64,000 nucleotides of DNA. Source: Ruditapes philippinarum (Eukaryota). Made by a program: the position numbers. This document shows, piece by piece, positions 1 to 3,000 of the stretch. Within the stretch, counting starts at the first letter, position 1; every line of letters starts with the position of its first letter. The DNA lies in NCBI RefSeq assembly GCF_026571515.1, contig NW_026856818.1, forward strand, positions 62,001 through 126,000, given 5' to 3'.

Positions 1-3000
1 TCCAAGGAAGAGCGATACGAGACAGAACGTTTAACCGTTATGGGAATACTTTACCCGACAACATCACAGCACACAGGACTACCCAAAAGGTACCCATTTG
101 GGAACCGGAAAGAGTTACGGGGCTTTTCTAAAGGGTCCAGGATCTTGACAACATGGTTTTCATTTAAATATTTAAAAAAATATATATGAATACTGAGGAG
201 GCTTCGTCTTATAAGTTACGCGCTATTTCAAAGTGAATCAGATGTCAAAATATCCATACTAAAAAGAAGCCAATAAAAACAGTATAACATTCTTATTATC
301 GTCAAGAATGCTCAATTTTCTCGTTGATTTATGAGTTCTTTCGCTTTATGATCTTATCTTAATACAATTTTTTACTTGATAATAACTACAATTATTACGG
401 TAATACCATTACGGTAATATCACCATTCTTTGAAAACCTGAGTTATTGTAAAAAAAAAAAAGGTTTTGCAAAGTTTGGCTATTTTTATTCCATTTCAATA
501 TTTTTTTTTAATTATTTACGCTCTTACCGAAATGATGTTATCTCCAAGCAGTATCTTGTTAGAATTTGCAGCTGGTGTACCAGGTACAACTTTATGTACA
601 AATAGCAGTTGCTTATCACCACCTCCTTTTATTGTTAAACCAAAAACTCCAGAAGCTTTCTCTAGGATAACCGTTCTTAAATACATAATAAATAAATAAT
701 TTATTCATAAAACAGATTTTGTTAATCGGCAAATCTCTGTCTCCATTGACAAGATAACGGCAATGACAAACATGTGACAAATAGTTTATTTCTGAATTTC
801 TGAAAGACAATTTGAACATTTTGTTCGAAAATAAATCATACTGATATTTCCATTCACAATTACGATACAAGCTTAACATAAATATGACTTAGATACTTTA
901 ACTCAGTGAAACAAATAACCAGTATCTAATTTTTAATCAGCTGTGAAGTAGCCAATGACGGTATAATAGATCGCTGACCTCCGCTTAAGACTATACCATT
1001 TGTGGGCAATTAAATCTAATAATATTTTTAATTCATGTTCTCAACAGTATTTAAGAAGACAAAAAGAGACAAAGACACATACCTTGGGTTCCTGATACCC
1101 TAAAATAGATAAAGAAGAACTCAAAGTCAGTTCAAAATTTAAAAGAAGAGATCACATTCAGGCCAAAGTTCTATGCCAATATTTCACCATTACTTTAATT
1201 ATTTTATGAGTATCATTATTGTAATATTACCTTGACATTTAGTGTACAGTTACGAGCTATATTTATCAATCTGATTAAAACCAGCTCCCAAAACGTACAC
1301 ACTGTAGAAAAAAGTATATCTGAACTTAAGTTAGATTGCATTTTGTCAAGCTGTCATCATGTATCCATTTATGAAATAAATTTGACTTTCTAAAACCGCC
1401 AATAGGGGACTTAAATAATAATATAATCAATATTTTGTAAAATGCATGCTCACATATTTGTCCAGTTCATCATCTGAAAAACATAACGTATCTTTTTATA
1501 AAATGAAACAAAATAAAATTTATGACAATATGAAGACATACTTAGAAAATGCTAAATAGACGATTGTCAAATATTTCCGAATAACGAGCGCTTAATGTGA
1601 AATGGCATTTGCGTGTCATTTAAAAAATAAATAGGAATCATTTAGTGCAATTTAATCATTTTTCTTACCTGGACCTCTAAGATATAAGTCACGTCCCTTG
1701 CATTTTTCAACTTCTTGTTCAATGTTTTCATTTTTCAGAAACCTATATTTTGTCCCAATAGTCCTTTTGCCAATTTCTATTAAATCTTCTTCTATTTCCT
1801 TTAATCGCTTTCTTAACCATAAGGCCATGACAAAGTTACCGGTTGGCTCATTTTTCTCCATGCCGGCCTTAGTTTTCATTGATGATAACTCATCTGTTAT
1901 ATTAGATACTTCTACCTTTAGCTTCCCTAATGCACTCAAGGTATCAGTTTTTATAAAACTGGCCTGTTTGCATGCATCAAATATGAGTTTGTCTATTTTT
2001 TCCAGTATCTCTTGCTTAAATCGCTCAGCATCACAAGTGAATTTTACATGTGCAGCTTTCATTTTCGCAATATTTCTATGTATTTCTTTCTCGTATTCTT
2101 TAATTTCGTTGCTGCAATTTTCTATTTCTTTAACAACCTCTTCTATATACTCATGTTCGTTTTGTCCCCTTGTCACATCTGATATATATAAAACTTCACA
2201 TGTTTTATGCTCGTGTATTATGCATTCTCCGCAACCAACTATTTCGTGAGCTTCACAGTAGAAGTTTATTTTCTCTTCAACATGCTTTGGACATTTGTCT
2301 ATCAATCCTACTGGCTTTATTTTTAAAGCAGATGGTGAACCACAATATGCATAGAGAAACACGTGGTTTCTGCAATGTTTGCCCTTCCGGTGATGTTGAA
2401 AACATTTACTGCACATATTCTCTTCACATTCTTTACAACATCCGTCAGCAGTAATGTCGTCTCCATCTTCTGCACACGGTTCACAAACAATATGTCCTTT
2501 TCGTCCAGATACTTCCATTTTAGTAGTTAAATTCTCTATGCTATAACGAAACTATAAATACTGTATTTAAAGCTTAAACACATACAACGCTTTACAAGTA
2601 AATAATTGAAATATCGATCGATAAATAGTGTACAGGTTAAGGCCTAGGTATTTATATAGACTTTATACAAACTATATTTATCATACTGTAAAGAGTTTCA
2701 CCTATATTACCCTGGATTAAAACTACGGCGCCTCAACAGTGACAAAACTTTTTTGCACAATCACAACAAGAAAATATATGGCAAACAAATATCCTTTAAA
2801 TTGGACTAAATAAGGTATTAATACAGGTTCTAACACGACCCGCATTTTCCCTATTGAACATAGAAGAACCGAATGCTATAAAATCACTGTTTGACGTTCT
2901 ATATTTAGACATGTGACGTAATCATTATACACGTGACGTAACCACGCGCTGACAATAAGTACGGAAACAAATCAGGCGCAATTTTGCTTAATATCAGGTA

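What the first reader, a model, noticed from the sequence alone, without database searches (positions are those of the whole stretch)
528..2518. Hidden PDZ exon makes a B-box/coiled-coil/PDZ fusion protein
Seen: exon 675-528, absent from the ORF track, joins in frame through two micro-exons (20 and 17 nt) and encodes a PDZ beta-A to beta-D segment with the carboxylate loop K-ASG-VFGL. Knowledge: TRIM-like proteins typically end in PRY-SPRY, NHL, FN3, PHD-bromo, MATH or ARF domains, and PDZ is not a standard TRIM C-terminus. The segment resembles DLG-type PDZ3 (EPR.V.....GLGF.I.GG...GD.ILS). Inference: exon shuffling produced a RING-less TRIM scaffold that binds C-terminal peptides.
Basis: partly seen in the sequence, partly recalled or inferred. 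Interest (0 to 1): 0.78.

Follow-up and report, generated by a model that had tools for sequence, protein, structure and literature searches.

The report
Clam B-box/coiled-coil protein ending in PDZ
A Manila clam gene really does splice a zinc-finger and coiled-coil exon through two tiny exons onto a PDZ peptide-binding domain, but the gene model is already in the public reference annotation, and it is one rare variant in a large clam family that swaps its tail domains freely.

Summary
On the minus strand, exon 1 (2518-1669), micro-exons 1473-1454 (20 nt) and 1099-1083 (17 nt), and exon 675-528 all have AG/GT borders. Exon 675-528 alone matches Pfam PDZ above its cut-off (32.0 bits). The model is not hidden.

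Exon 1 encodes B-box1, B-box2 and a TRIM-type coiled coil, with no RING. The same B-box/coiled-coil/PDZ layout occurs in four deposited proteins of two venerid clams. It is nevertheless rare, found in 2 of 152 relatives scanned. The others carry NHL, SPRY, Macro, SH2, UEV and other domains, or nothing.

The head-to-head neighbour gene shares the phase-1 intron and the micro-exon layout but has no PDZ. The most likely role is a RING-less dimeric adaptor presenting two class-I-like PDZ domains; this is inferred, not shown. I saw no RNA evidence. Six literature searches found no description of the architecture. Interest is modest.

The parts
1669..2518 (-). Exon 1: start codon, B-box1, B-box2, coiled coil. 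283 codons plus 1 nt, so the donor is in phase 1.
   Evidence: It is 100% identical to residues 1-283 of XP_060593264.1. PDB sequence match to the TRIM28 RBCC 6h3a, E 1.8e-8.
2360..2488 (-). B-box1 (aa 11-53)
   Evidence: Weak Pfam ANCHR-like_BBOX hit, 14.2 bits, below cut-off. C15 C28 C31 C36 C39 H43 H52 are invariant and C12 nearly so in 80 relatives. Modelled zinc-finger fold; Foldseek hit to TRIM28 Bbox1 6o5k, TMt 0.82.
2198..2299 (-). B-box2 (aa 74-107)
   Evidence: Pfam zf-B_box 23.5 bits against a cut-off of 24.1. C76 H79 C88 H91 C96 C107 are invariant; C99 and H104 nearly so. Foldseek hit to MuRF1 B2 3ddt, TMt 0.74.
1763..2158 (-). Coiled-coil region (aa 121-252): a 100-residue helix followed by a return helix.
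   Evidence: AlphaFold2 model, mean pLDDT 89.9, helices 121-220 and 225-252. Foldseek hits to the KAP1/TRIM28 tripartite motif (prob 1.00) and the TRIM5alpha BBox-coiled-coil 4tn3 (TMq 0.41).
1652..1668 (-). Read-through tail: if intron 1 is retained, 5 more codons (GKKND) and a stop follow, giving a 288-aa PDZ-less product.
   Evidence: A 289-aa deposited relative from another contig (P0153) ends the same way.
1454..1473 (-). Micro-exon 2, 20 nt. With the last base of exon 1 it encodes DDELDKY.
   Evidence: AG/GTGAGC borders. The peptide is present in P0001 and P0154. The neighbour gene has a 23-nt counterpart encoding VAEHDKRN.
1083..1099 (-). Micro-exon 3, 17 nt. It encodes GIRNP and two bases of the next R codon.
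   Evidence: AG/GTATGT borders. The neighbour has a 17-nt exon with the same phase and donor; 11 of 17 bases are identical by my count from the alignment.
528..675 (-). Exon 4: first ~60% of the PDZ domain (TVILEK...DNIIS), including the carboxylate-binding loop.
   Evidence: Pfam PF00595 32.0 bits, E 1.6e-7. PDB PDZ hits. 100% identical to P0001.
4822..7474 (+). Head-to-head paralogue (XP_060593260.1, 321 aa). Exon 1 is 4822-5713, micro-exons are 5866-5888 and 6118-6134, and the last exon starts at 7441 (RTVMTDTCVRL, then stop). It has the same exon layout and no PDZ.

Best explanation
The window comes from the Manila clam Ruditapes philippinarum, a bivalve; it is not human. The minus-strand gene at 2518-528, which continues left of the window, is a real, already annotated gene. 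It belongs to a large clam family of RING-less TRIM-like proteins.

Its long first exon encodes B-box1, B-box2 and a TRIM-type coiled coil. A phase-1 intron, conserved between the two paralogues in this window, leads through two micro-exons (20 and 17 nt) into exons encoding one complete PDZ domain.

Inferred mechanism, by analogy with solved TRIM coiled coils:
- The coiled coil forms an antiparallel dimer whose return helix brings the C-terminal domains towards the middle of the rod. Each dimer would then display two PDZ domains.
- The PDZ keeps the phi-G-phi carboxylate loop and the helix-B histidine of class-I PDZs. It should therefore clamp C-terminal S/T-x-phi tails of partner proteins.
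- With no RING, the protein has no ligase activity of its own. It would act as a bivalent adaptor or clustering scaffold, possibly assembling further through its B-boxes.

Shown here: the exons, the domains, the identity to the deposited model, conservation in two venerid genera, and the rarity of the PDZ tail. Inferred: dimerisation, peptide binding and cellular role.

The PDZ tail most likely arose once, by exon shuffling onto the family's common phase-1 joint, before Ruditapes and Mercenaria split. It was lost or replaced in the neighbouring paralogue.
For: Gene model:
- Exon coordinates and splice sites.
- Exon 1 is 100% identical to XP_060593264.1, and that protein's sequence equals the four exons.
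- The 13-aa micro-exon peptide is identical, 13 of 13, in the 91%-identical copy P0154, while the flanks differ.
- The neighbour has the same donor position and phase, a 23-nt micro-exon, and a 17-nt micro-exon with the same GTATGT donor.

Domains:
- PDZ: 32.0 bits on exon 4 alone and 57.8 bits on the deposited protein.
- B-box ligands are invariant in 80 relatives.
- The model has pLDDT 89.9, with two B-box folds and a 100-residue helix.
- Foldseek and sequence hits to the TRIM28, TRIM5alpha and MID1 B-box/coiled-coil structures.

No RING:
- The ORF starts at 2518 after an upstream stop.
- No Cys-rich ORF of 35 aa or more lies in 2519-4821, judged by eye.
- 0 of 152 relatives have an N-terminal RING at E<=1e-4. 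One, P0108, has a Deltex-type RING after the coiled coil.

Conservation:
- Mercenaria P0007 is collinear with P0001 over B-boxes, coiled coil and PDZ at 38% identity. P0165 also has B-box plus PDZ.
- All four keep the RTV start, the phi-G-phi loop, GD.IISI, ASH..AV.L.K and a post-PDZ E(D/E)FN motif.
- Both species belong to Veneridae.

Binding-site features:
- VFGL aligns with GLGF of PSD-95 PDZ3.
- ASH aligns with ASH of PSD-95 PDZ3 and ARH of Scribble.
Against: - I could see no RNA-seq or cDNA. All four B-box/coiled-coil/PDZ proteins are pipeline predictions, and similar loci could share the same prediction bias.
- PDZ-less products are also annotated: P0153 (289 aa, the read-through form at another locus) and P0166. 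The PDZ isoform may therefore be minor.
- The B-box2 Pfam score is just under the curated cut-off (23.5 against 24.1).
- The end of the PDZ, including the helix-B histidine, lies outside the window and is known only from the deposited protein.
- Dimerisation and peptide binding were not tested. pTM is only 0.54 for the monomer model.
- Only the best 150 of 1657 relatives with E<=1e-3 were scanned for domains. The true frequency of PDZ tails is therefore uncertain.
Confidence: 0.72

Rival explanations
1. The main product is the PDZ-less protein. Intron 1 is usually retained, or other 3' exons are used, giving a 288-aa B-box/coiled-coil protein. The PDZ isoform would then be a rare splice form or an over-extended pipeline model.
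For: The exon 1 frame closes 5 codons after the donor (GKKND, stop). A 289-aa deposited relative ends the same way (P0153). Close paralogues of 301-327 aa have no tail domain. Mercenaria has a PDZ-less isoform (P0166).
Against: The PDZ and the micro-exon peptide are conserved in an intact frame. The linker is identical, 13 of 13, in P0154. PDZ motifs are kept between two genera at about 40% overall identity. That is not expected of unused exons. All four splice sites are consensus-like.
Confidence: 0.17
2. The fusion is an annotation chimera. The PDZ exons belong to a separate small downstream gene, for instance one starting at the in-frame ATG at 686-684 just upstream of exon 4. The micro-exons would then be spurious bridges.
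For: An ATG lies 3 codons upstream of the acceptor in the open PDZ frame (MYLRTVILEK...). With loose criteria, hundreds of in-frame bridges exist by chance.
Against: The same fusion is modelled at four loci in two species, collinear throughout. The neighbour paralogue has homologous micro-exons of 23 and 17 nt with the same phases and donor, followed by an exon that also starts RTV. Under strict splice filters only 3 bridges remain.
Confidence: 0.06
3. The locus is a decaying duplicate, a pseudogene in the making, within a fast-turnover family, and its PDZ has no function.
For: The family is large and turns over quickly. The neighbour lacks a recognisable PDZ after the shared RTV start, and P0166 leaves the PDZ frame.
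Against: No stop or frameshift occurs in any of the four exons in the window. All zinc ligands and PDZ motifs are intact. The deposited 383-aa protein scores 57.8 bits over nearly the whole PDZ profile.
Confidence: 0.05

Closest known systems
TRIM/RBCC proteins, closest solved example KAP1/TRIM28 (6h3a, 6qaj, 7z36); also the TRIM5alpha B-box/coiled-coil (4tn3)
   Same: Tandem B-box1 and B-box2 followed by a long coiled coil with a return helix. Sequence match E 1.8e-8 over aa 15-177. Foldseek probability 1.00. The variable C-terminal domain acts as the target-binding part.
   Different: There is no RING, so no intrinsic E3 activity is expected. The C-terminal domain is a PDZ, which I do not recall among the usual TRIM tails (SPRY, NHL, FN3, PHD-bromo, MATH, ARF, filamin); that list is from memory. 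Sequence identity to the solved structures is only 14-17%.
'TRIM-like' RING-less B-box/coiled-coil proteins, as defined by Marin 2012 (PMC3503706; passages read), and the bivalve-expanded B-box family
   Same: It has the RBCC signature without the RING. It belongs to a lineage-expanded family with 1657 relatives at E<=1e-3. Close relatives are named TRIM45-, TRIM33- or TRIM71-like by the pipeline. A B-box orthogroup is listed among bivalve expansions in PMC8382680 (passage read).
   Different: Among 152 relatives scanned, the tails were NHL (17), SPRY (2), MIB_HERC2, PHR, Macro, ubiquitin, VWA, PARP14-type KH/RRM, SH2, UEV, Deltex RING-DTC, or none. Only 2 carry PDZ.
LNX and PDZRN RING-PDZ ubiquitin ligases (family named from memory)
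   Same: They combine a ubiquitin-system-type zinc module with PDZ domains that select substrates by their C-termini. An LNX PDZ appears among the weak PDB hits (3b76, 13.3 bits).
   Different: Those proteins have a RING and several PDZs but no B-boxes or TRIM coiled coil. This one has B-boxes and a coiled coil, one PDZ and no RING. No relationship beyond the generic PDZ fold was seen.
Class-I scaffold PDZ domains (PSD-95/DLG, syntrophin, Scribble)
   Same: Exon 4 and the deposited tail align along the whole domain. The phi-G-phi loop and the helix-B histidine are kept.
   Different: Similarity is generic, at most 22.6 bits to any single solved domain. No particular donor family can be named. 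Here the PDZ is single and sits on a TRIM-type rod rather than in a MAGUK or other multi-PDZ scaffold.

Membership tests
TRIM / RBCC family | N-terminal RING finger | tested here: not met
   The ORF starts at 2518 after an upstream stop and no RING family was hit. No Cys-rich ORF of 35 aa or more lies upstream, judged by eye. The deposited model and its relatives start at the same Met. 0 of 152 relatives have an N-terminal RING.
TRIM / RBCC family | B-box1 with its eight zinc ligands | tested here: met
   The pattern C12 C15 C28 C31 C36 C39 H43 H52 is invariant or nearly so in 80 sequences. Foldseek hit to TRIM28 Bbox1, TMt 0.82. Pfam ANCHR-like_BBOX gives only 14.2 bits, below its cut-off.
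TRIM / RBCC family | B-box2 (Pfam PF00643 at or above its gathering score) | tested here: inconclusive
   The score is 23.5 bits against a cut-off of 24.1. However, the ligands C76 H79 C88 H91 C96 C99 H104 C107 are conserved, and the fold matches MuRF1 and TRIM54 B2 boxes at TMt 0.69-0.75.
TRIM / RBCC family | Long coiled coil after the B-boxes, forming an antiparallel dimer | tested here: inconclusive
   Helices 121-220 and 225-252 are predicted at high confidence and match TRIM28 and TRIM5alpha coiled coils. Dimerisation itself was not modelled or tested.
PDZ domain (PF00595) | Profile match above the gathering score | tested here: met
   Exon 4 alone scores 32.0 bits against 23.2. The deposited protein scores 57.8 bits over profile positions 2-79 of 81.
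PDZ domain (PF00595) | Carboxylate-binding loop (x-phi-G-phi) with a preceding basic residue | tested here: met
   K-A-S-G-V-F-G-L aligns with R-G-S-T-G-L-G-F of PSD-95 PDZ3. The loop is kept in all four B-box/coiled-coil/PDZ proteins. The role of the loop is established knowledge, not tested here.
PDZ domain, class I | Histidine at the start of helix B, which reads Ser/Thr at position -2 of the ligand | tested here: met
   ASH in the deposited tail aligns with ASH of PSD-95 PDZ3 and ARH of Scribble and is kept in all four proteins. This residue lies outside the window. The class rule is recalled knowledge.
PDZ domain | Actual binding of C-terminal peptides | not testable with these tools
   No binding data exist here.
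LNX / PDZRN RING-PDZ ligases | RING plus multiple PDZ domains | tested here: not met
   There is no RING and only a single PDZ.

The most novel reading that the evidence does not exclude
Venerid clams have turned a RING-less TRIM rod into a bivalent reader of protein C-termini. The protein would be one sensor in a large innate-immunity-style repertoire in which the same B-box/coiled-coil scaffold is fitted with interchangeable recognition heads (NHL, SPRY, SH2, UEV, Macro, PDZ). The PDZ version would detect or cluster host or invader proteins that end in a class-I PDZ-binding motif.
Probability: 0.12. Interest if true: 0.6.

Novelty: new variant of a known kind. Interest (0 to 1): 0.3.

Why it matters
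If the PDZ isoform is made, the TRIM coiled-coil rod can serve as a general dimeric display platform for peptide-recognition modules beyond the textbook set. Clams would then diversify it by exon shuffling at one conserved phase-1 intron. That makes the family a compact natural example of modular domain exchange, and a pointer to how bivalves build large intracellular recognition repertoires.

The practical value is small. The gene model and its PDZ are already in RefSeq under misleading automatic names ('E3 ubiquitin-protein ligase TRIM45-like', although it has no RING). The useful correction is that it should not be read as an E3 ligase.

Tried and rejected
Searches that added little:
- A word-index search with exon 4 alone, 'longer' lengths, returned only the deposited protein itself: 1 hit among 10 candidates. 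It gave no clue to the PDZ donor.
- An ESM Atlas search with the Mercenaria relative P0007 gave no usable hit.
- Six literature searches and passages of six papers yielded no description of a B-box plus PDZ protein. The library lacks most subscription journals and supplements were closed, so this is weak evidence of absence.

Ideas rejected:
- 'DLG PDZ3 origin'. PSD-95 tops the list only by summing three domains.
- A PDZ remnant in the neighbour gene. Beyond about the first 10 bases of its last exon, no likeness is seen (87 of 203 columns identical in AT-rich DNA). tblastn with the PDZ found only 677-525 in the window.
- An upstream RING exon.
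Full report
**What is in the sequence**

The window is AT-rich eukaryotic DNA, about 33% G+C, with two N runs that I left alone.

| Exon | Coordinates | Length | Splice features |
|---|---|---|---|
| 1 | 2518-1669 | 850 nt | ATG at 2518, donor GTAAGA |
| 2 | 1473-1454 | 20 nt | acceptor after TGTTTTTCAG, donor GTGAGC |
| 3 | 1099-1083 | 17 nt | acceptor after ATCTATTTTAG, donor GTATGT |
| 4 | 675-528 | 148 nt | donor GTAAGA |

The exon phases run 1, 0, 2, 0, so the frames connect. If intron 1 is not removed, the exon 1 frame closes after five more codons, giving a 288-aa ORF. 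The open frame around exon 4 is only 62 codons long, which is why it does not appear in an ORF list.

**Exon-by-exon domain evidence**

I left out the joined step: I built, searched and folded no joined sequence.

- Exon 4 (49 aa) matches Pfam PDZ at 32.0 bits, E 1.6e-7, above the 23.2-bit cut-off. It covers profile positions 2-51 of 81.
- Against solved structures, exon 4 hits 23 PDZ chains at E<=0.01.
  - PSD-95 is first only because three of its domains add up. Its PDZ3 stretch scores 12.9 bits.
  - The best single stretch is beta-2-syntrophin at 22.6 bits.
- Exon 1 (283 aa) gives zf-B_box at 23.5 bits, just under the 24.1 cut-off, and a weak B-box1-type hit. It also matches the TRIM28 RBCC structure 6h3a at E 1.8e-8 over residues 15-177.
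- In an alignment of exon 1 with 79 relatives, the zinc ligands of both B-boxes are invariant or nearly so: C12 C15 C28 C31 C36 C39 H43 H52, and C76 H79 C88 H91 C96 C99 H104 C107.
- An AlphaFold2 model of exon 1 alone has mean pLDDT 89.9 and pTM 0.54. It shows two small zinc-finger folds, a 100-residue helix (121-220), a return helix (225-252) and short helices up to 278.
- Foldseek against the PDB returns, among its best matches, the KAP1/TRIM28 tripartite motif (probability 1.00), the MID1 tandem B-boxes and the TRIM5alpha B-box/coiled-coil (TMq 0.41). Single B-box structures match at TMt up to 0.82. Chains of a Toxoplasma conoid-ring assembly also score, at low TM (0.16-0.20), which I read as long-helix matches.
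- No RING was found.
  - The ORF begins after an upstream stop.
  - No Cys-rich ORF of 35 aa or more lies between this gene and its divergent neighbour, judged by eye.

**The model is already deposited**

- Searching exon 1 returned a protein 100% identical over all 283 residues. It is P0001, 383 aa, with precomputed Pfam PF00595.
- The cluster look-up names it XP_060593264.1, 'E3 ubiquitin-protein ligase TRIM45-like [Ruditapes philippinarum]', from a 242,421-bp contig.
- Its sequence reads ...LRGP, DDELDKY, GIRNPR, TVILEK...DNIIS. A further 37 residues follow, beginning INNVDV.
- A local tblastn finds residues 1-288 and 296-346 in the window, but nothing for 347-383. The rest of the PDZ therefore lies left of position 1.
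- On the deposited protein, Pfam gives a complete PDZ: residues 298-373, profile 2-79 of 81, 57.8 bits.
- The contig is clam DNA, not human.

**Are the micro-exons more than chance?**

From this sequence alone, only weakly.

| Splice-site criteria | Candidate segments | One-exon bridges | Two-exon bridges |
|---|---|---|---|
| Any AG...GT segment of 6-60 nt | 140 | 24 | 750 |

Comparative evidence is stronger.

- A second Ruditapes protein on another contig (P0154, XP_060566939.1, 383 aa, 91% identical) has the 13-residue micro-exon peptide unchanged, 13 of 13. The residues just before it and many PDZ residues differ.
- The head-to-head neighbour gene in this window has the same layout.
  - Its exon 1 (4822-5713) is 100% identical over 297 residues to XP_060593260.1.
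  - Its donor sits at the same position and phase: CCA G|GT in both genes.
  - A 23-nt micro-exon follows at 5866-5888, encoding VAEHDKRN, against DDELDKY here.
  - A 17-nt micro-exon follows at 6118-6134. It has the same length, phases and GTATGT donor as exon 3. By my count from the alignment, 11 of 17 bases are identical.
  - Its last exon also starts RTV but stops after ten more codons. Beyond roughly the first ten bases it shows no likeness to the PDZ exon.

**Distribution of the architecture**

A full HMMER search of 1.84 billion representatives with exon 1 found 1657 relatives at E<=1e-3, of which 362 were at E<=1e-10 and 24 at E<=1e-30. The best 150 were listed. I scanned those 150, plus P0002 and P0004, against Pfam at E<=1e-4. 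That is 152 proteins, so 150 of the 1657 relatives were examined.

- PDZ occurs in 2 of 152: P0001 and P0007.
- Other tails on the same scaffold:
  - NHL in 17 and SPRY in 2.
  - One each of MIB_HERC2, PHR, Macro, ubiquitin, VWA, SH2, UEV and a Deltex RING-DTC.
  - PARP14-type KH or RRM domains in 2.
  - A few beta-propeller-like hits. Many have no tail domain.
- None of the 152 has an N-terminal RING.

P0007 is XP_045184315.2, 'TRIM71-like isoform X3' of Mercenaria mercenaria. It is collinear with P0001 from the first Met through the PDZ at 38% identity. A search with the linker-plus-PDZ part of P0007 found two more Mercenaria proteins.

- P0165 (434 aa) has B-box plus PDZ and is 67% identical to that part of P0007.
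- P0166 is an isoform without PDZ.

All four B-box/coiled-coil/PDZ proteins keep the RTV start, the phi-G-phi loop, GD.IISI, ASH..AV.L.K and a post-domain E(D/E)FN motif. Both species belong to Veneridae.

**How it probably works**

- The domains and their order are shown.
- Dimerisation is inferred from what is established for TRIM coiled coils (recalled knowledge, consistent with the structures hit). The rod would pair antiparallel, and the return helix would bring the C-terminal domains towards its centre. Each dimer would then present two PDZ domains.
- The PDZ binding groove looks intact.
  - In exon 4, K-A-S-G-V-F-G-L aligns with the carboxylate-binding loop of PSD-95 PDZ3.
  - In the deposited tail, the histidine of ASH aligns with the helix-B histidine of PSD-95 PDZ3 and Scribble.
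  - By the class rule, which I recall and did not test, this predicts ligands ending S/T-x-hydrophobic.
- Without a RING, the automatic name 'E3 ubiquitin-protein ligase' is not justified by the sequence. An adaptor or clustering role is more likely.
- The conserved phase-1 intron after the coiled-coil exon, together with the range of tails in the family, fits exon shuffling at that joint.
- The shared micro-exons in the PDZ-less neighbour suggest that the micro-exon layout predates the duplication of the two window genes.

**Results against my reading**

- No transcript evidence was available to me.
- PDZ-less forms are annotated: P0153 (289 aa, ending as the read-through does) and P0166.
- An in-frame ATG lies just upstream of exon 4, so a stand-alone PDZ product cannot be excluded from sequence alone.
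- All fusion proteins are pipeline models.
- The B-box2 score is marginally below the Pfam cut-off.

**Literature**

Six full-text searches found no paper describing a B-box plus PDZ protein. I read passages only, through the find mode.

| Paper | What the passages showed |
|---|---|
| Marin 2012, PMC3503706 | 0 occurrences of 'PDZ' in the main text. Defines 'TRIM-like' proteins as those lacking the RING or the B-boxes. |
| Regan et al. 2021, PMC8382680 | Lists a B-box zinc-finger orthogroup in a table of bivalve expansions. |
| Kaur et al. 2021, PMC8195603 | Mentions B-box and PDZ in other fusion contexts. |
| PMC9679248 | Reports several TRIM proteins up-regulated in parasite-infected flat oysters. 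|
| PMC5549309 | Lists 108 B-box domains in a mussel transcriptome. |
| PMC8905726 | No relevant mention. |

Supplements were closed and might hold domain-architecture tables that bear on this.

**Verdict**

- The novelty claim is not supported, because the model is already in RefSeq with its PDZ flagged.
- The biology is a rare, conserved variant in a promiscuous RING-less TRIM-like family of venerid clams.
- Its function is inferred only. Interest is modest.

Noticed in passing
window 4822-7474 (+): A divergent head-to-head paralogue (XP_060593260.1, 321 aa; B-box 34.4 bits). Its start codon lies 2.3 kb from that of the finding's gene. It has the same phase-1 donor and a 23-nt plus 17-nt micro-exon layout, but a 10-codon tail after RTV instead of a PDZ.
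   Followed up: yes
window 3036-3208: An inverted repeat with 79-nt arms, 85% complementary, and a 15-nt loop. It lies in the shared upstream region between the two divergent B-box genes and looks like a miniature transposon or hairpin.
   Followed up: no
window 29244-30195: A tandem array of a 164-bp unit, 5.8 copies, 98% matches. It looks like a young satellite.
   Followed up: no
window 31144-31712: A degenerate TG/TGT-rich low-complexity array. It accounts for the GC-skew spike of 0.31 in 30001-32000.
   Followed up: no
window 34951-36114 (+): A 387-aa ORF matching Pfam Tocopherol_cycl over the whole profile (69.2 bits, E 4.3e-19). This is an unexpected family for an animal genome.
   Followed up: no
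window 18017-19423 (+): A 468-aa ORF with a Core-2/I-branching enzyme (Branch) domain, 146 bits. It appears to be a single-exon glycosyltransferase gene.
   Followed up: no
window 24613-26406 (+): A 597-aa ORF with no Pfam hit. It contains a 93-bp (31-codon) tandem repeat at 25258-25557.
   Followed up: no
Mercenaria proteins P0007, P0165, P0166 (not in the window): P0007 and P0165 appear identical over roughly their first 300 residues, yet they carry different linker-plus-PDZ cassettes (67% identical) under different gene names. These may be alternative PDZ cassettes or very recent duplicates. P0166 shares the linker but leaves the PDZ frame.
   Followed up: partly
window 9455-9597 and 44081-44233: Two N runs of 143 and 153 bases.
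   Followed up: no
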